Shown one piece after another: positions 3,306 to 17,127 of a stretch of DNA of 24,118 nucleotides. Every line of letters starts with the position of its first letter. The stretch's first letter is position 1. Under the pieces are notes generated by a model. It worked only from the letters and a program-made list of their open reading frames with translations, did no database searches and was not told the origin of the DNA. Position numbers and translations under genes: made by a program. The DNA comes from a virus (taxonomy: Duplodnaviria; Caudoviricetes): positions 1-24,118 of the IMG/VR virus record IMGVR_UViG_3300006749_000124. One strand, 5' to 3'.

Positions 3306-3581
3306 AAGGGTTGTAGCCTTGGAGACTATGCAACGGAGGTTGTTTATAATGATTAAGTTAAGGATTTTAAATGAAACAGGACATACAGAAGTAATGCTCG
3401 CGTCGGAAGAAATTATTGAACAAATTGATACACACCCTACACATTGGGTTTTTATTGATGGTGAAATGGTTAGCCGCGAACAGATTACTACTCTTGATTG
3501 GAATACAGTCGAGAGTGTGGATTTAACTCCCGCAATTGTGGGAGGTGCATTCTGAAACACTAGTTTCCGGCTGCAACCCTT
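3306..3581 (+). repeat. Long-range inverted repeat enclosing the Ubl ORF
   Basis: AAGGGTTGTAGCC-TT-GGAGACTA (3306-3328) pairs with TAGTTTCC-GGCTGCAACCCTT (3561-3581): 21 bp, two G-U pairs, one 2-nt bulge. Confidence 0.8.
3349..3555 (+). CDS. Ubiquitin-like (beta-grasp; SAMP/ThiS/MoaD-like) protein precursor
   Basis: 68 aa, MIKLRIL...WVFIDGEMV...ESVDLTPAIVGG-AF. The pattern matches the beta-grasp C-terminal strand ending in P.I.GG. GGAGG site at 3335-3339. Confidence 0.75.
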   Translation: MIKLRILNETGHTEVMLASEEIIEQIDTHPTHWVFIDGEMVSREQITTLDWNTVESVDLTPAIVGGAF

Positions 3582-5911: not shown

Positions 5912-6233
5912 AAAGAAAGATAGGAAATTGTTTCCTTTACACGTCCTTTGTCTAGCGGCGAATGAATTTAGCAAAGAAGAGTTTGCTGAAATAAAAGATG
6001 CGGTTGAGATTGCTCGTCGCCTCTATGATGACGAAGAAAGAATCAGAAGAGTTTGGGAAAGCCTAACAAAAATTATGTGGAGATACCCCAAGTGTATTGA
6101 TGAAGGATTCCATACATTCTTTAACTCTCGTATTGAACAATATAATGAAGCCATCGAATATCACGATGTTAATTGTAATAGCCAATGTAAATTATGTGTG
6201 GTTTTATCATGTGTAAAAAATCTAGAATTTTAA
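5901..6233 (+). CDS. Hypothetical protein
   Basis: Fills the gap between RNR and the deaminase; GTG start uncertain; C-terminal H..C...C..C..C cluster. Confidence 0.5.
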   Translation: MKFRKKDRKLFPLHVLCLAANEFSKEEFAEIKDAVEIARRLYDDEERIRRVWESLTKIMWRYPKCIDEGFHTFFNSRIEQYNEAIEYHDVNCNSQCKLCVVLSCVKNLEF

Positions 6234-6529
6234 ATGTTGCTCGTAATAAGGCAAAGGAATGTGACTACTTTTATCGCCTTGGTGCGGTAATTGTCCGTGG
6301 TGGAAAGATTCTTTCTATCGCAAGCAATACCCGTAAAGGACACGCTGAAGTGAACGCTATTAAACAGGCAAGTAAAACTGAAGGCGCAGACATTTACGTT
6401 ACTCGCCATACGCCAACAGGAATGGCTATGGCGAAACCATGCGGTAATTGCATGGAAGCGATTAAAGCGGCGGGCATCCGTCGTATTTATTACACTAGCC
6501 GTGATGGGCTACATAAGGTGATACTATGA
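6209..6529 (+). CDS. Zn-dependent cytidine/dCMP deaminase-family protein
   Basis: LGAVIV, HAE.NAI and PCGNC motifs; lies near RNR. Confidence 0.85.
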   Translation: MCKKSRILNVARNKAKECDYFYRLGAVIVRGGKILSIASNTRKGHAEVNAIKQASKTEGADIYVTRHTPTGMAMAKPCGNCMEAIKAAGIRRIYYTSRDGLHKVIL

Positions 6530-6693
6530 AAGAACATGACCCTGAATATACAGAAAATACCCGTGGGTATAAAAAAAGAACGGCTACACGATGCCGAATC
6601 TGTGGTGGACAACTTCTACACCCTGAAGATTTTAAAAGAGAAATGCACGAAGATTGTGCGAAGAAAGAAGATAAAACAATTTACATGATGTGA
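6526..6693 (+). CDS. 55-aa Zn-finger protein (not in the ORF track)
   Basis: MKEHDPEY...RCRICGGQLLHPEDFKREMHEDC...; CxxC...HxxC; AAGGTGA site and ATGA overlap. Confidence 0.7.
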   Translation: MKEHDPEYTENTRGYKKRTATRCRICGGQLLHPEDFKREMHEDCAKKEDKTIYMM

Positions 6694-6697
6694 TAAT

Positions 6698-7846
6698 ATG
6701 GAAAAGCAATGTATTTCATTTTATATTTACAAGCCTAACGATTCAGGGCAGTATTATACCGCTAGAATTTATTTTGATGGGACTGACACAGACAGATATG
6801 TTATTGGAACAAATAGTCTTAACATTTACGCAGACCGTAAGAATACACAGAACCCCCTGCATTTTTCAATCACAAAGAAGATGAAGGAAATGGTCACAGC
6901 AATTGGTAAGCATTTCAATGGAAGTGCAAAATCATTTAAGTTTGGTTCTCTTCCAATTGTTCTATCTAAGGAGGAGACTAAGTATCAAATTAATGGTCAA
7001 ACTAAGTCCCTTGCTGAGATTTCAGATATCCTTGCTCGTGTTCTGTATAAGAGTATCTTTGAAGAAGACCCTGTTAAACTCATGCAATATTTCATGAGTC
7101 GTCTTGATATGCCTGAAGCGGTGTCTTATGTTATTGAAAACCGCTTACCTTATTTCTTCTTTGAGAACTTTAGAAAGATTGAGGTTCGCTTGAATGTGAT
7201 GCAGATTGATGATGATTCTTGTGCAATCGAGATTGCTGATGGTATTTGGGGTGAAATTAGTTTCAGGGATTTAACTACTTATTATAACTACTATGTTCTA
7301 GGAAAGAAGCGTGGTTCTTGGAAGAACCTTTCACCTCAGAGTCTTTATGAGCGTCTAATGGGACACCGACCAAAAGATTCAGATGTTAAGGTGATGATTG
7401 AGTTTTTGAAGCAGAACCGACAACAAGATATTGTTGAAAAGCGTGCAATTGAATTAATGCACGACCTTGTGAAGCAATACCCTGAAAAGATTAAACTAAC
7501 ATATGATACGGACGGAAGGGCAGTAATGTATGTTCGTGGTCGTGGTTATGATTGGAAGTTATCAGAAAGCACATATAAGTCTGAAATTCAGAACGTTAGC
7601 ACATATGTCTGGCAACCGAGCCATACCACATATGATGACGAAGGAAATGCTATTAAGCAGAAACCTACATGGCGTGGTCCTATTTGCATTGATAATATGG
7701 CGCGAGGTTCTTCAACAGGCGACCAATTCGCGGCTAGGGCTTTGGCTCTTCTTAACGATACTTTAACAGTAACAATCGTTAGCACAATTCAACGATACCT
7801 AATTGCAAAACAAAATGAATATAGAGTTGATTTTAATGCGGTGTGA
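6698..7846 (+). CDS. Hypothetical protein; C-terminal domain is a candidate divergent E2 (Ubl-conjugating) domain
   Basis: The ORF is secure (382 aa); the E2 call is inferred. EKRAIELMHDL resembles E2 helix 1 and GPICID (Cys330) resembles GxICLD. No HPN motif. Confidence 0.45.
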   Translation: MEKQCISFYIYKPNDSGQYYTARIYFDGTDTDRYVIGTNSLNIYADRKNTQNPLHFSITKKMKEMVTAIGKHFNGSAKSFKFGSLPIVLSKEETKYQINGQTKSLAEISDILARVLYKSIFEEDPVKLMQYFMSRLDMPEAVSYVIENRLPYFFFENFRKIEVRLNVMQIDDDSCAIEIADGIWGEISFRDLTTYYNYYVLGKKRGSWKNLSPQSLYERLMGHRPKDSDVKVMIEFLKQNRQQDIVEKRAIELMHDLVKQYPEKIKLTYDTDGRAVMYVRGRGYDWKLSESTYKSEIQNVSTYVWQPSHTTYDDEGNAIKQKPTWRGPICIDNMARGSSTGDQFAARALALLNDTLTVTIVSTIQRYLIAKQNEYRVDFNAV

Positions 7847-8708
7847 TGAATGCGGTTCAAGACAAACGTCTTTTGATGAAAGACTTGGTGAAAGGGTTTG
7901 CGACGATTGCGGTTTAGTTATCGTTGTTGAACAGTTTGAAGAAACTGTTCGTGGCTATGGTGTTGGTGATTTTGGAAACTCTAGAATTGGAGATAAGGGT
8001 CACTTAGGAAGTTTTACAGACAAGAGGATTTCAACTGTAAGAACAGGAGCAGGTCATCATATGACTCGCGGTGTTTCCGATACCGAAAGAGCAATTTTGA
8101 AAGGTATTCAACTGACTAATATGGTGTTTGGCTCTTTGGGCTTTCCATCTGTTCTTAAAGAACGAACCGAACAGATTTATCGTGAGTGTTTCCGAAAGCG
8201 TGTCTTTGGTCAATATGGTATGGAAGTGCGAGCAACTGCTATTGCTTATTACGTTATGAAGGAAAATAGAACTCCTGTTCCTCTTTCATTAGTTTGCCAA
8301 GAGTATGACGTATCTCGTAAAGCAGTAAATAGATTGGTTCGTAGAATTACCAAGCACTATGGAAATAAAACTGTTAATCAAAACACTACAGACTTTGAAG
8401 TAAAGAGGCTCGCCCAACTAGTCTGTGAAGACCCAACGTTTTCTAGCCTGTGTTGTGAAACGTTGGTTCATTTTGAGAAAGTGCTTGAAGCACTAACAAT
8501 CAGTAAGAGTAAATCATTTGTGGCGTCCATTGTTTATATGACGAGCATTATGTATGATTATAAAATCACAGGACAGGCAATCGAGGACTACGCCTTTGTG
8601 TCCCGAGCGTCTATGATTCAAGAAGTAAAACGCTTGATTAAACCTTTTGGATTCAAACTTCCAAGAGAAATCAAAGGCAAAACATTAAACGATTTTGAGA
8701 TGATTTAA
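7836..8708 (+). CDS. tfb: Transcription initiation factor B (TFB/TFIIB homologue)
   Basis: Zn ribbon CDECGS...DERLGERVCDDCGLV followed by two cyclin-like helical repeats (ATAIAYY, VASIVYM). Confidence 0.85.
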   Translation: MRCDECGSRQTSFDERLGERVCDDCGLVIVVEQFEETVRGYGVGDFGNSRIGDKGHLGSFTDKRISTVRTGAGHHMTRGVSDTERAILKGIQLTNMVFGSLGFPSVLKERTEQIYRECFRKRVFGQYGMEVRATAIAYYVMKENRTPVPLSLVCQEYDVSRKAVNRLVRRITKHYGNKTVNQNTTDFEVKRLAQLVCEDPTFSSLCCETLVHFEKVLEALTISKSKSFVASIVYMTSIMYDYKITGQAIEDYAFVSRASMIQEVKRLIKPFGFKLPREIKGKTLNDFEMI

Positions 8709-9266
8709 ATGAAGAAAATTTTAGTAATTGGAGCAGGTGGAATTGGAAGTTTCTTAATTCCACTTCTCGACAGAATTAACGAATACAACATTACGGTGGC
8801 TGACCCTGATAAGGTGGAGACAAAGAATCTCCTTTATCAGAATTACCTACCTTTAAATGTTGGACAGAATAAGGCACAGTCAATGCAAGACATTCACAAT
8901 AATGTCTCAAAGGCTAGCCCTTATCCGATTTTAACTGCAAAACAAATGGAGGGTTATGACCTCGTTGTTTCTTGTGTAGATAACCTAGGAGTTAGGCGCA
9001 CTCTTTACAACACAACCCTTAAGTGGTTGGACCTTCGCGCTCAAGGTAGGAATGCGGCACTTGTGACGCATAACGCTGACCCTGCGCTTTACGATTCTCT
9101 CTTGGCCGGACCTGAAGGTTCTTTTTCGTGCCAAAGTGAGAATTGGGATGGTTCAGGAGCAGGTGTGAACCTTATGAACGCTATGATTGCAGGTGCAGGC
9201 GCACAATGGATTCAGAAGTATTTTAACAATGAAGACACGAAGGCGTTTATGACTTTTAATATTTGA
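8709..9266 (+). CDS. ThiF/MoeB/E1-family Ubl-activating adenylyltransferase
   Basis: ILVIGAGGIG, DPDKVETKNL, NKA, DLVVSCVDN...R, WLD; candidate catalytic Cys141 in SFSCQ; no Zn-binding CxxC pairs. Confidence 0.88.
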   Translation: MKKILVIGAGGIGSFLIPLLDRINEYNITVADPDKVETKNLLYQNYLPLNVGQNKAQSMQDIHNNVSKASPYPILTAKQMEGYDLVVSCVDNLGVRRTLYNTTLKWLDLRAQGRNAALVTHNADPALYDSLLAGPEGSFSCQSENWDGSGAGVNLMNAMIAGAGAQWIQKYFNNEDTKAFMTFNI

Positions 9267-9276
9267 GGTGAATAAA

Positions 9277-10476
9277 ATGAATTTTACAGAAGAAGAAATT
9301 AAATTTATGCAAAAACTACGAACGAAAAACATGGGCTATGGAAACATCGCTCGTCGGCTTGAAGCCGTTTATCGAAAGAAGCCTACGGTTTCTCAGGTAA
9401 AGCGAGCATTGGCGACCCCTGAGCAAAAGCAAGCAGATACAGAAATTGCTGCTATGTCTCTCCCTAACAGCCTTAAGGAAGTTGTGAAACTCCGAGAGAA
9501 TGGAGCAACATATAAGCAGATTACTGAGCAAACAGGCTTTTCTTATAAAAAGGTCAAGAGTATCTGTGATGTTTTTGTTGCTAATAACTCTAATATCTCT
9601 AAGTCTAATATGACTAGGTATAAAGCAGAAAAGATGAAGAAGGCCAGAAACAATAGATGGACTGATGAAGAAACTTCTAAGTTGTTTTCTTTAAATCAAC
9701 AAAATGTCTCTTGGAAAGAGATTTCTGAGAAGTTGGGAAGGAGTCAGAGGGCTTGCAAACAGAAATACATGTATGAAGTTAAGAAGGGCCATCTAACTTC
9801 TAAGTCTGCCCCTGTTGAGAATACTGAATGGACTACCTTTGAAGATAAGGCCTTAGTTTTCTCTATGTGGTTTTATAGTGAGCAACCCTATGCTTATGAA
9901 CATATTTCTGGACTTGTTTCAAAAGATAATAAGAGGACAGTAACAGATTGTTTGGCCCGTTACAATCTTCTAAAGGAGCAAAATCAGATTGAGTCTATCT
10001 TGGATGAGGAACCACCAAATTTTCCATTCCTTAATACTTTTTCTAATAGTGGTCGCATTAAGCCAATGCCCTTGCCGGAAGAGGTAAATGCAAAAGAAGC
10101 ATCTAAAGATAAAAAGTGGGCTAACAACCGATGTAACTATACTCCACAACAGGAGTTGGGAATTATGGTTGATTTCCCTAACCTGAGTATTGACGAAATG
10201 CGTGAAAAATACCAAAGGGACTATCGCGCTCTTGCAGGCCGGTATGAAGACATTTGGGATTCAGAAGAACCTTCAAGAATCGCTTTGGTTATAGAGGCTT
10301 CTCAGATTGTTTCTGCCCGTAAGCGGGAAGAGGCGGAAAAGCAAATTGAGCCGCGAATGGGATGGTTTGAACGCCGCCGTATGAAGCGTGTGGCGCGTAA
10401 GGCTGCGAGGATTCAGAAGCGATTGAACAAGATGGCTACCAAGTATGGTGCAATTCTAACAAATGGAGATGAATGA
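9277..10476 (+). CDS. Multi-HTH, Myb/SANT-like repeat DNA-binding protein
   Basis: WTDEE..KL......SWKEISEKLGRSQRACKQKY, WTTFEDKAL...RTVTDCLARY, YTPQQE...RDYRALAGRY, plus N-terminal HTH-like segments. GAGGTGA site before ATG 9277. Confidence 0.7.
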   Translation: MNFTEEEIKFMQKLRTKNMGYGNIARRLEAVYRKKPTVSQVKRALATPEQKQADTEIAAMSLPNSLKEVVKLRENGATYKQITEQTGFSYKKVKSICDVFVANNSNISKSNMTRYKAEKMKKARNNRWTDEETSKLFSLNQQNVSWKEISEKLGRSQRACKQKYMYEVKKGHLTSKSAPVENTEWTTFEDKALVFSMWFYSEQPYAYEHISGLVSKDNKRTVTDCLARYNLLKEQNQIESILDEEPPNFPFLNTFSNSGRIKPMPLPEEVNAKEASKDKKWANNRCNYTPQQELGIMVDFPNLSIDEMREKYQRDYRALAGRYEDIWDSEEPSRIALVIEASQIVSARKREEAEKQIEPRMGWFERRRMKRVARKAARIQKRLNKMATKYGAILTNGDE

Positions 10477-10477
10477 A

Positions 10478-11002
10478 ATGGGTAAGATTAAAGACAGATT
10501 TTTTGACGAAATCAATTCAGATGATGATTCTGGATATGAAGATTATGAACTTGCTGATGTAGCAATCAGGAATGCTTGGGAAACCTGTAAAGAACATTAC
10601 GGCCAAATGTCCGACACTCATCATCCAGAATTAAACGAAGCAATCTGGGACTGTTCGACAATGTTGTTTCCCGGTCTTGAAATTCAAGTTGTGATTGATG
10701 GGACAGATAATCTTTATTGGTCCGTTGGCTCGCCCGGATATGTTGATTTTCCCGCACCTCCTCTCGGAATGAAATTGCCGATTAAGTGTTGGATTCATAC
10801 CCATCCTTTTGGTTCTGCATATTTTAGCGGAACCGATTGGCGAACTATTAATTCATGGCGCATTCATATGCAACGTGCCGAAGTCCTTGGAAACATGGAA
10901 TGGGGTGTTTGGGATGGTGAAGCAGGTCATCAATACACCCATATTAAGGTTACAGAAGACAGTAACCTACTGCTAACAAAAATTGGAAGTGAAGAAGAAT
11001 GA
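10478..11002 (+). CDS. JAB/MPN+/JAMM metalloprotease
   Basis: E(IQV)...WIHTHPFGSAYFSGTD fits the JAMM E-xn-HxH-x7-S-x2-D motif exactly. Confidence 0.88.
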   Translation: MGKIKDRFFDEINSDDDSGYEDYELADVAIRNAWETCKEHYGQMSDTHHPELNEAIWDCSTMLFPGLEIQVVIDGTDNLYWSVGSPGYVDFPAPPLGMKLPIKCWIHTHPFGSAYFSGTDWRTINSWRIHMQRAEVLGNMEWGVWDGEAGHQYTHIKVTEDSNLLLTKIGSEEE

Positions 11003-11406
11003 AGAAATTTGAAAGAAAACAACAAGAACGCGGACAAGCATTTACTTTGGACTATACTCGTTCAACGCGAGCATATCCAAATGGAACTGCAAATGTTAAA
11101 ACCATTTACGTTAACGAGGTAACTGAAGGAAGAGGTGGAAAGAAGTTCACCAACACCATTCAGATGCTTGTTCCTGTTGAACCTGTTGAATGTTCAAAGC
11201 GTGTTAAAGAACATAAGGCCCGTCATCCGAACGATGTGAAGAAAACATATGATGAAATGCATATCCCCGGAAATGCTCGTCAAGCAAAGGCAGGAAAGCG
11301 AGATAAGCACCTAAAGGAGTTCTATAAAACTCATGTTTATGCTTACGTTAGGCCCGGAGTCCGTCGTTGGATTCCTATTCCTGAACTTAAGGAGGAAAAT
11401 GAATGA
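10999..11406 (+). CDS. Basic hypothetical protein
   Basis: ATGA-coupled on both sides; K/R-rich. Confidence 0.7.
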   Translation: MKKFERKQQERGQAFTLDYTRSTRAYPNGTANVKTIYVNEVTEGRGGKKFTNTIQMLVPVEPVECSKRVKEHKARHPNDVKKTYDEMHIPGNARQAKAGKRDKHLKEFYKTHVYAYVRPGVRRWIPIPELKEENE

Positions 11407-11636
11407 ACTACAATATTGTTAAATCAGTTGGAAACTATGCAGTAGTTAAGATTGAAAAGACTCAAACTACGTCAGGCATTGTTTCATCCCACGGTAACGT
11501 AGGAATGTGTATTGCTTGCTCAATGGATAGTGACCTTAATAATAAGAAGGTAATGTTCAATGGGCGAAAGACATATGAAAAGTATGGAGATTTTATGTTT
11601 GTTCCATATGCAGATATCTTTTGTGTGGTGAACTAA
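11403..11636 (+). CDS. groES: GroES-like co-chaperonin
   Basis: VGNYAVVK...TTSGIV (mobile loop)...G....A...KVMF...DIFCVV follows the Cpn10 pattern; 77 aa; just upstream of GroEL. Confidence 0.65.
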   Translation: MNYNIVKSVGNYAVVKIEKTQTTSGIVSSHGNVGMCIACSMDSDLNNKKVMFNGRKTYEKYGDFMFVPYADIFCVVN

Positions 11637-11720
11637 ATGTGTGGCGCTATTCCAATCGAATGTAATTCCTGCGGAACATGGTATAGATTTGACCATGAAT
11701 GTAAGGAGGAAGAAAAATGA
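11637..11720 (+). CDS. 27-aa Cys/His microprotein (not in the ORF track)
   Basis: MCGAIPIECNSCGTWYRFDHECKEEEK; starts directly after the groES stop and its stop overlaps the groEL ATG. Confidence 0.5.
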   Translation: MCGAIPIECNSCGTWYRFDHECKEEEK

Positions 11721-13231
11721 TTACTACAGAGAAAGAAGTAAAAGAAAAACTATTGCAAGGTATTAACATGGTTGCTGACGCAGTTTCGCCCACCTTTGGA
11801 CCACAGGCTAAAACGGCGATTCTTCAGGGAAACCCGCCCGTCATTATCAACGACGGTGTAACTATTACGAAATACGTTAAGCACGATGACCCATATGTTC
11901 AGATGGGTATTCAAATGGTTCAAAATCTTGCTAGCCAAGCACAGGATAAATCCGGTGATGGAACAACTACTGCCTGCATTCTTGCACGCTCTCTATGTAA
12001 TAACATCTTCAGCCATTACTCTAATATTGAAAATATGCGAGTATTTCAAGATGAACTTGCTACCATTTCAGAATTTATTGTTAGTAAAATTAAAGATGCG
12101 ACCCAACCAATTACTGATGAAGACGTATATGGTGTAGCATTTATCTCATCAAACAATGATTATCAGATTGCAGAAATGATTACAGAAGCAGTAAAGGCAG
12201 TAGGAAAGGACGGAGTGATTACTGTTGAAGAAGGTAAAACTTACAAGAATGAACTGATTATCAGAGAGGGCGTTCGTCTTGATGAAGGCTACCTTAGTCA
12301 TCTGATGGCTAACAAAGAAAATGGAACTTGTGAATTTGAGAACCCTCTCATCTTTATGTCCAACCTTTCTTTCCGTAACTTCCAAGATTTGCTGCCTATG
12401 CTTGAGATTGCTTCTGTTCAAAAGCGACCTCTTCTTATCATGTGTAAAGGAATAGAAGGTTCTGCCATGAATAACTTAGTGGCAAACATTATTCAACAAA
12501 CTGTTCAAGTGGCTGCTATTCTTGCGCCTAACTTTGGTGATGCACAGTTAGATGAATTGGGCGACCTTAATGCTCTTGTTGGAGGAAAGATTTTCAATAA
12601 TGAAAGCAACGATGACCCGACCTTAGTTTCCATTGGAGATTTTGGTTCTTGTGAAAGAGTAATTGTTTCAAAAGAATACACAACAATTATCGGTGGCGAT
12701 GGTGATGTTCAGTCTCGAATCGAAACGCTCCGTTCAATGGCTGAAGATATGGAAGGATATGATAAAAATAGAATTAAGCACCGTGTTGCTCGTTTGAAGG
12801 GAGGTGTAGCGACTATCCAAATTGGTGCATCTTCCGCTATTGAAATGCGTGAATCAAAGGAAAGATTAGATGATGCGTTAAATGCAACTAGAGCCGCCCT
12901 TGCTGAAGGTATTGTTGGGGGTGGAGGCATGACTTATGCTGATATCGCAAACGCAATTGCTGAAACTGCGGGACAAACTCTTTCTATCGTAGATAACATG
13001 CTAATGGATGCTCTCTATGAACCTATTCGCTGTTTGCTTGAAAATTCAAACATGAAAGAAGAAGTTCTAAACACTTGGGTTCTTGGTGGATTCAATGCTC
13101 TCACCGGAGAGTTTGGGGACTTAAAGGAAATTTATGACCCGGCTAGGGTTGCTAGAGAATCCTTTTTAGCCGCTATGTCCATTGCCCGTCTGTTCCTAAC
13201 TACATCTGTAGCAATTACATTGGAGGACTAA
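11717..13231 (+). CDS. groEL: Group I chaperonin (GroEL-like)
   Basis: TFGP, INDGVTI, GDGTTTA, GVITVEEG, APNFGD, ARLKGGVA.I.IG, ERLDDALNATRAA, GIVGGGG, DP; lacks the GGM tail. Confidence 0.93.
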   Translation: MITTEKEVKEKLLQGINMVADAVSPTFGPQAKTAILQGNPPVIINDGVTITKYVKHDDPYVQMGIQMVQNLASQAQDKSGDGTTTACILARSLCNNIFSHYSNIENMRVFQDELATISEFIVSKIKDATQPITDEDVYGVAFISSNNDYQIAEMITEAVKAVGKDGVITVEEGKTYKNELIIREGVRLDEGYLSHLMANKENGTCEFENPLIFMSNLSFRNFQDLLPMLEIASVQKRPLLIMCKGIEGSAMNNLVANIIQQTVQVAAILAPNFGDAQLDELGDLNALVGGKIFNNESNDDPTLVSIGDFGSCERVIVSKEYTTIIGGDGDVQSRIETLRSMAEDMEGYDKNRIKHRVARLKGGVATIQIGASSAIEMRESKERLDDALNATRAALAEGIVGGGGMTYADIANAIAETAGQTLSIVDNMLMDALYEPIRCLLENSNMKEEVLNTWVLGGFNALTGEFGDLKEIYDPARVARESFLAAMSIARLFLTTSVAITLED

Positions 13232-16301: not shown

Positions 16302-16673
16302 ATGGCAATTAAACACAAGAACTTTAATTACTTTGTTTGGAATGATAATTCAGTTACACGTATTGCGGAGTTAAGAAAACATGAAGTGGCAAAGGCGCTT
16401 AATTTACATAAGAAGCGTCTAAAGTCTGGCTACATTGTTCTTAAGAAGTTACATGAACAACGACTGAAAACCTTACCGGGTTCTAAACCAATTAATACAG
16501 AAAGGGTTATGCTAAGAACCATGAAGATGAGAACTAGTAGGCCCGTAAAAACCTCAAGCCGAGAAGTTCGTCTTGATGCAATTATTCAAACGGCTTTGTT
16601 TCTTTTGGATAGTGAAGCAGATTTTGAAGCAGTAAAGAACTGTCTAAAGCAAGCAGGTGATAAAGATGATTAA
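16302..16673 (+). CDS. Basic hypothetical protein
   Basis: Starts directly after the ligase stop; K/R-rich. Confidence 0.65.
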   Translation: MAIKHKNFNYFVWNDNSVTRIAELRKHEVAKALNLHKKRLKSGYIVLKKLHEQRLKTLPGSKPINTERVMLRTMKMRTSRPVKTSSREVRLDAIIQTALFLLDSEADFEAVKNCLKQAGDKDD

Positions 16674-17127
16674 AGAAGGACAATTTACAGTAATTGATGG
16701 TAAAACTTATCAAGTGATGCGTATTGAAGAACAAACTGCACATCTTCAGAATGTCGAAACGTATAAAGGGCGACCGCGTAAGATGTTGGCGAGGTTGGTC
16801 CCTTATTTCGCTGAAGACGGAAACCTTATTGTGCCTGAGCCTGTGACCGAAACTGCGATTCCAACGCGAAAACTGACTTCTAAAGTCAACATTAGAAAGA
16901 TTATTGCAGAAAATACTGAGATGCAAGTTTCAAAGAATGCAATTATGTGGCTACATGAACAGTTAGAAGGAATTTGTGAAGCCCTAATCAGTCAAGCAGA
17001 ATTGAAAGCCGAGTTCCATAATCACAAAAGAATTGAACCGAGACATATTCAACATGTCCCAATCCCTGAAAGCGCACCAGATTATGTATATCTGAGTCAT
17101 GATGATTATGTTAAGGATGGAATCTGA
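16666..17127 (+). CDS. Histone-fold protein with N-terminal beta-rich domain
   Basis: IRKIIAEN (alpha1), MQVSKNA (L1), IMWLHEQLEGICEALISQAELKA (alpha2), HKRIEPRHIQ (L2-alpha3). GGTGA site before ATG 16666. Confidence 0.75.
   Translation: MIKEGQFTVIDGKTYQVMRIEEQTAHLQNVETYKGRPRKMLARLVPYFAEDGNLIVPEPVTETAIPTRKLTSKVNIRKIIAENTEMQVSKNAIMWLHEQLEGICEALISQAELKAEFHNHKRIEPRHIQHVPIPESAPDYVYLSHDDYVKDGI

What the first reader, a model, noticed from the sequence alone, without database searches (positions are those of the whole stretch)
6698..7846. Candidate new E2 family fused to a large unknown N-terminal region
Seen: the last ~140 aa begin with EKRAIELMHDLVKQYP (compare eukaryotic E2 helix 1, KRIxKELxDL), continue with several beta-like segments, then WRGPICIDNM (Cys330, codon 7685-7687) and a helix (DQFAARALALL). 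Established: the E2 catalytic Cys lies in a GxICL(D) flap, and prokaryotic E2s are highly divergent. Inference: an E2 whose N-terminal ~240 aa may select substrates in place of an E3. The match is short and the HPN motif is absent, so this call is tentative.
Basis: inference. Interest (0 to 1): 0.72.

Follow-up and report, generated by a model that had tools for sequence, protein, structure and literature searches.

The report
Viral E2-like enzyme in ubiquitin-type kit
A conserved gene of ocean viruses that likely infect archaea ends in a domain predicted to fold like ubiquitin-carrier (E2) enzymes, keeps one almost unchanging cysteine, and sits near genes for a likely ubiquitin-like tag, an activating enzyme and a trimming protease, so these viruses likely bring their own protein-tagging system.

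The parts
6698..7846 (+). 382-aa protein: N-terminal alpha+beta region plus C-terminal E2-like domain
6698..7417 (+). N-terminal region (residues 1-240): compact predicted fold, function unknown, candidate adaptor; residues 1-80 highly variable, 1-120 basic
7418..7843 (+). Predicted UBC/E2-like domain (residues 241-382): helix, four-strand meander, flap strand, Cys, three helices
   Evidence: 11 of the 13 invariant residues lie here
7619..7666 (+). Variable-length loop (about residues 308-323) between strand 4 and the Cys strand
   Evidence: V300-to-C330 spacing is 17-83 residues in close homologues and falls to 15 in distant ones
7685..7687 (+). Cys330, predicted catalytic cysteine
   Evidence: 183 of 184, 115 of 115, 92 of 93
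3349..3555 (+). Small Ubl-like protein (68 aa, 66 after trimming), invariant GG at 3541-3546 plus a 2-residue tail; beta-grasp fold not tested
   Evidence: GG in 53 of 53 distinct homologues; 13 end at GG and 40 carry 1-2 extra variable residues; GGAGG upstream of the ATG
8709..9266 (+). ThiF/E1-like adenylating enzyme, single domain, Cys141 at 9129-9131
   Evidence: Pfam ThiF E 7.6e-15, above the curated cut-off; SCQ motif in 113 of 113 distinct homologues
10463..11002 (+). JAB/JAMM metallopeptidase (E73, H112, H114, S122, D125)
   Evidence: Pfam Prok-JAB E 0.0019, below the curated cut-off; these residues are kept in 70 of 70
7803..8708 (+). TFB-like gene between the E2-like and E1 genes; a conserved neighbour, not shown to be part of the cascade
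   Evidence: TFIIB Zn ribbon E 7.8e-8; present in 78 of 81 loci

Best explanation
The protein is likely the E2 (conjugating) enzyme of a predicted virus-encoded ubiquitin-like tagging cascade, with Cys330 as its likely catalytic cysteine. Inferred steps: (1) the viral JAB trims the viral Ubl to its GG end; (2) the ThiF/E1 adenylates it with ATP and holds it as a thioester on Cys141; (3) the Ubl passes to Cys330; (4) it is transferred to lysines of target proteins without a separate E3, with the fixed N-terminal region and the variable loop before Cys330 likely positioning targets; (5) JAB may reverse the tag. Shown here: the conserved co-occurrence of the four genes, the invariant GG, the two invariant cysteines, the JAMM residues and the predicted UBC-like fold. 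All chemistry and all targets are inferred.
Confidence: 0.7

Rival explanations
1. Sulfur-relay pathway: the Ubl is a ThiS/MoaD/Urm1-type sulfur carrier activated by the ThiF enzyme and matured by JAB, and Cys330 carries or accepts sulfur for modifying DNA, tRNA or a metabolite.
For: The Ubl is short (66 aa) and ends in GG. The E1 is a minimal single-domain ThiF. JAB peptidases also accompany sulfur-carrier clusters (PMC1779556 passages).
Against: The partner has a predicted UBC fold, which in PMC1779556 marks the conjugation-type neighbourhoods. No rhodanese, desulfurase or cofactor-synthesis family was found among the 22 window proteins scanned; the 92-kb relative G001 was read only by eye.
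Confidence: 0.12
2. Non-catalytic UEV/RWD-like adaptor: the domain binds the Ubl or E1, and Cys330 is structural.
For: RWD and UEV domains score as well as E2s. HPN is absent. One close homologue (P0015) has Tyr at 330.
Against: The Cys is kept down to 22% identity while its neighbours change. No second conserved Cys or His exists for a disulfide or metal site.
Confidence: 0.1
3. A different cysteine enzyme (acyltransferase, deconjugase or E3-like acceptor) whose helix-meander-helix layout resembles UBC by chance and which is not part of the Ubl relay.
For: Middling Z and no sequence link. An invariant polar set (Q298, D342, Q343, R347, N353, D354) has no known E2 counterpart. Other core genes are also syntenic.
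Against: The alignment to E2s covers the whole domain from first helix to last. An E1 with an invariant Cys and a processed Ubl would otherwise lack an obvious acceptor in the cluster.
Confidence: 0.08

Closest known systems
BilB, the E2 of bacterial BilABCD ubiquitination systems (PMC10557695; abstract and Results read)
   Same: Four-gene set Ubl, E2, JAB, E1; no E3; diverged E2 fold with a catalytic Cys after a variable loop; Ubl with a conserved Gly and a variable tail that JAB removes.
   Different: Bil is bacterial anti-phage defence; this is carried by the virus. BilD has IAD, AAD and CYS domains; this E1 is a 185-aa single domain. BilB has a conserved His beside the Cys; this has none. 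This protein has an added 240-aa N-terminal region, and the genes are dispersed among replication and transcription genes.
Canonical UBC E2s (UQ_con PF00179; Ube2K, UBE2S, Ubc13, Ubc9)
   Different: No HPN, no YPxxPP motif (both motifs recalled), 2-16% identity, no profile match.
PRTRC / operon 6d protein B (Prok-E2_D PF14460; PMC1779556 passages)
   Same: Cluster of Ubl, JAB, E1-like and an E2-like protein lacking the classical His.
   Different: No profile similarity. Lacks the conserved His after the Cys. Those systems are bacterial.
Nidhogg Asgard viruses with ThiF/E1-like genes (bioRxiv 10.1101/2021.07.29.454249; passages read)
   Same: Archaeal tailed viruses with E1-like genes.
   Different: There only E1 homologues are reported and the E2 and Ubl are assigned to the host; here the virus carries all four predicted parts.

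Membership tests
UBC/E2 fold superfamily | Helix, four-strand meander, flap and C-terminal helices aligned over the whole domain | tested here: met
Catalytic E2 | A conserved cysteine in the domain | tested here: met
   183/184, 115/115, 92/93
Catalytic E2 | That cysteine superposes on the E2 active-site cysteine | tested here: inconclusive
   The fold tools give ranges only. Spacing from strand 4 fits. Non-significant local alignments put Cys on Cys with L175 (probability 1.2%) and the Prok-E2_D set (0.1%), but not with L174.
Catalytic E2 | Forms a Ubl thioester received from E1 | not testable with these tools
UQ_con (PF00179) | Pfam profile match | tested here: not met
   No UQ_con hit for the protein or for any of 72 domain homologues at E<=10
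UQ_con (PF00179) | HPN motif before the Cys | tested here: not met
   Absent; Q306-P307 may occupy the place, and it is variable
BilB / BilABCD | Ubl, E2, JAB and E1 encoded together | tested here: met
   dispersed over 7.6 kb, order Ubl, E2, E1, JAB
BilB / BilABCD | Conserved His next to the E2 Cys; multidomain IAD-AAD-CYS E1 | tested here: not met
   No conserved His in the domain; E1 is 185 aa
Prok-E2_D (PF14460, PRTRC protein B) | Profile similarity and a conserved His after the Cys | tested here: not met
   feature taken from PMC1779556
RWD/UEV inactive domains | Loss of the catalytic cysteine (recalled) | tested here: not met
   An invariant Cys is present
Ubiquitin-like beta-grasp modifier (ORF 3349-3555) | Beta-grasp fold | not tested
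Ubiquitin-like beta-grasp modifier (ORF 3349-3555) | Conserved C-terminal GG, exposed or followed by a short variable tail | tested here: met
   53 of 53

The most novel reading that the evidence does not exclude
Magrovirus-type viruses of marine archaea carry a complete, self-sufficient Ubl conjugation cascade as core genes, in which this protein is a fused E2 and substrate adaptor of a family unrelated in sequence to known E2s. It would tag host proteins (for example general transcription factors, to be replaced by the adjacent viral TFB, or defence proteins) during infection. That would be the virus-side mirror of Bil/CBASS-type defensive conjugation.
Probability: 0.4. Interest if true: 0.88.

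Novelty: new variant of a known kind. Interest (0 to 1): 0.68.

Why it matters
The prokaryotic E1-E2-Ubl-JAB systems in the papers I read are cellular, and the tested ones act in or are linked to anti-phage defence. Archaeal viruses were reported there with E1-like genes only. A full cascade kept across a broad group of marine viruses would show viruses using their own ubiquitin-type chemistry on a prokaryotic host. It would also add a deeply diverged E2 family for studying E2 evolution. Four small soluble genes make it directly testable by co-expression in E. coli, although the likely hosts are uncultured.

Tried and rejected
Family libraries gave no name: Pfam, PHROGs, PDB sequence profiles (0, 2 chance-level and 0 hits at E<=10), ESM Atlas for each half, and INPHARED phages by tblastn (no match). 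Profile comparisons with fetched E2s were not significant. Tandem degenerate RWD repeats in the N-terminal region (suggested by Mediator, BRE and CENP-O/P rows) found no support: segment-against-segment hhalign gave probabilities below 1%. The mirror-tree test gave no E2-E1-specific signal. A stand-alone short form was not found: the 54 shorter hits and 58 representatives outside 330-500 aa look mostly like fragments, but I did not check their contig ends. A cellular origin was not supported: 2 matches among 185,579 genomes, both on short contigs in bacterial MAGs; L081 shows the viral gene order, and L082 was not read. That scan used two exact peptide patterns and would miss distant cellular relatives. 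crAss001 gp78 is not a detectable homologue. BFVD gave three unnamed full-length relatives (E<1e-29) and a giant-virus E2 at E 0.048.

Full report
Observation. The ORF at 6698-7846 encodes 382 aa; EKRAIELMHDLVKQYP is residues 247-262, codon 7685-7687 is Cys330, and HPN is absent. The protein has 360 homologues among 2509 candidates; none of the 120 listed has a Pfam domain or an informative name. It has 97 relatives in viral contigs, of which 80 were fetched.

Source. The window reads as a magrovirus-type archaeal virus. This label is my inference and comes from no tool. It rests on a TFIIB zinc ribbon and a histone-fold hit; on RNR, chaperonin, ligase and clamp-loader genes recognised by eye; and on five relatives being 92-96 kb viral records, 97-100% complete, one with terminal repeats. 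No host genome is held. A pattern scan of 185,579 prokaryote genomes gave 2 matches, both short contigs in bacterial MAGs; the one I read has the viral gene order.

Conservation. Cys330 is kept in 183 of 184 distinct close homologues (the exception has Tyr) and in 115 of 115 full-length homologues from loci, at 23% identity and up. A profile search of 1.84 billion representatives found 151 clusters. Of the 150 listed I kept the 92 of 330-500 aa and dropped 58. With the window protein, 92 of 93 have the Cys at 22-54% identity, and the exception matches only the first half of the domain. Neighbouring positions vary more: G327 73/93, P328 63/93, N333 76/93. Of 13 invariant residues, 11 lie in 241-382. 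Residues 85-240 are present in 93 of 93, so the fusion is fixed. Residues 1-80 are variable (mean identity 19%) and 1-120 are basic.

Context. In 81 loci centred on this gene (80 plus the window), a ThiF/E1 gene was found in 79, JAB in 77, the small GG-ended ORF in 71, TFB in 78 and the chaperonin in 71; misses include loci cut by contig ends. The reverse test used loci found through the E1 (best 80 of 395 and best 80 of 144), giving 92 distinct E1 sequences. This gene was present in 76 of 76 with at least 4 kb upstream, the Ubl in 55 of 55 with at least 9 kb upstream, and JAB in 89 of 89 with at least 4 kb downstream. The 8 loci without this gene had 1245 bases or fewer upstream. These loci sample this virus group only. 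The Ubl has GG in 53 of 53 distinct copies; 13 end there and 40 carry one or two variable extra residues. The E1 keeps its SCQ cysteine in 113 of 113, and the JAB keeps E73, H112, H114, S122 and D125 in 70 of 70. A distant clade (L169, L294-L296, 23-27% identity) keeps all four genes and the Cys. Against over-reading: TFB and the chaperonin are nearly as syntenic, and distance correlation showed no E2-E1-specific signal.

Mechanism. The most likely sequence is JAB trimming, E1 adenylation and thioester at Cys141, transfer to Cys330, then isopeptide transfer to targets with no separate E3. Each chemical step is inferred by analogy with BilABCD (PMC10557695). I saw no RING-like E3 in the window or in G001, but G001 was read only by eye. 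The N-terminal region folds well alone (pLDDT 93.8, pTM 0.85) and lacks invariant catalytic-type residues (only W184 and N240), which fits an adaptor or scaffold; its ligand is unknown. Targets are unknown. The adjacent viral TFB and the report that an archaeal TBP is Ubl-modified for degradation (PMC4895103, start of abstract in a search listing) make host transcription factors one testable guess.

Literature. 'magrovirus' + 'ubiquitin' returned 0 papers; five further searches listed no description of this system. Seen: PMC11706807 and PMC10160649 (term searches of the main text, no ThiF or ubiquitin passage); PMC5434244 (listing, and 2 supplementary files searched with no hit); PMC10557695 (abstract and Results); PMC11601596 (abstract and outline); PMC1779556 (passages); 10.1101/2021.07.29.454249 (passages); PMC10768690 and PMC4895103 (listing only). 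Supplementary annotation tables of the other magrovirus papers, bioRxiv supplements and subscription papers were not seen and may already list the ThiF or JAB genes.

Earlier scan notes. Two earlier findings on other genomes (e1-5996589, e1-5999316) reach the same reading. I had recorded that reading before opening them. They are not independent evidence, and they show this family has been flagged before in this scan.

Verdict. The feature is real. It likely works like an E2 (0.7) but belongs to no described E2 sequence family. It is a new variant of a known kind of system, notable for being carried whole by a virus. The claim that the N-terminal region replaces an E3 is plausible and untested.

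Noticed in passing
L162:3244-7654 (crAss001, NC_049977.1) and L163:3523-7654 (PQ006092.1): crAss-like phages carry two unknown genes, a JAB gene and a ThiF/E1 gene in a row. The second unknown (gp78, 444 aa) has an HSH...PC stretch in both phages and could be an unrelated E2-like protein; gp79 lacks a terminal GG. No similarity to this protein was found. Possibly a second virus-borne conjugation module.
   Followed up: partly
window 3349-3555: The Ubl-like protein has an invariant HPTHW motif (53 of 53); it may be a binding or metal site.
   Followed up: no
window 6526-6693: Small 55-aa ORF with CxxC and HxxC directly upstream of the gene, zinc-finger-like; conservation not checked.
   Followed up: no
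window 6194-6529: Cytidine/dCMP deaminase-like gene (E 1.3e-12) found in only 4 of 81 loci: a recent or patchy acquisition.
   Followed up: no
window 16657-17127: Protein with a C-terminal histone fold (Pfam Histone E 0.001, below cut-off).
   Followed up: no
window 11403-13231: A small ORF that looks GroES-like by eye (no Pfam hit; 62 of 81 loci) precedes a chaperonin gene.
   Followed up: no
L169 (G006:C18) and L081: One bacterial MAG holds two contigs of this virus group, one from a distant clade that matches IMG/VR record L294 at 100%: likely misbinned viral DNA.
   Followed up: partly
L025 and L045: One 184,733-base IMG/VR contig holds two different copies of the cassette about 90 kb apart, possibly two joined genomes.
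   Followed up: no
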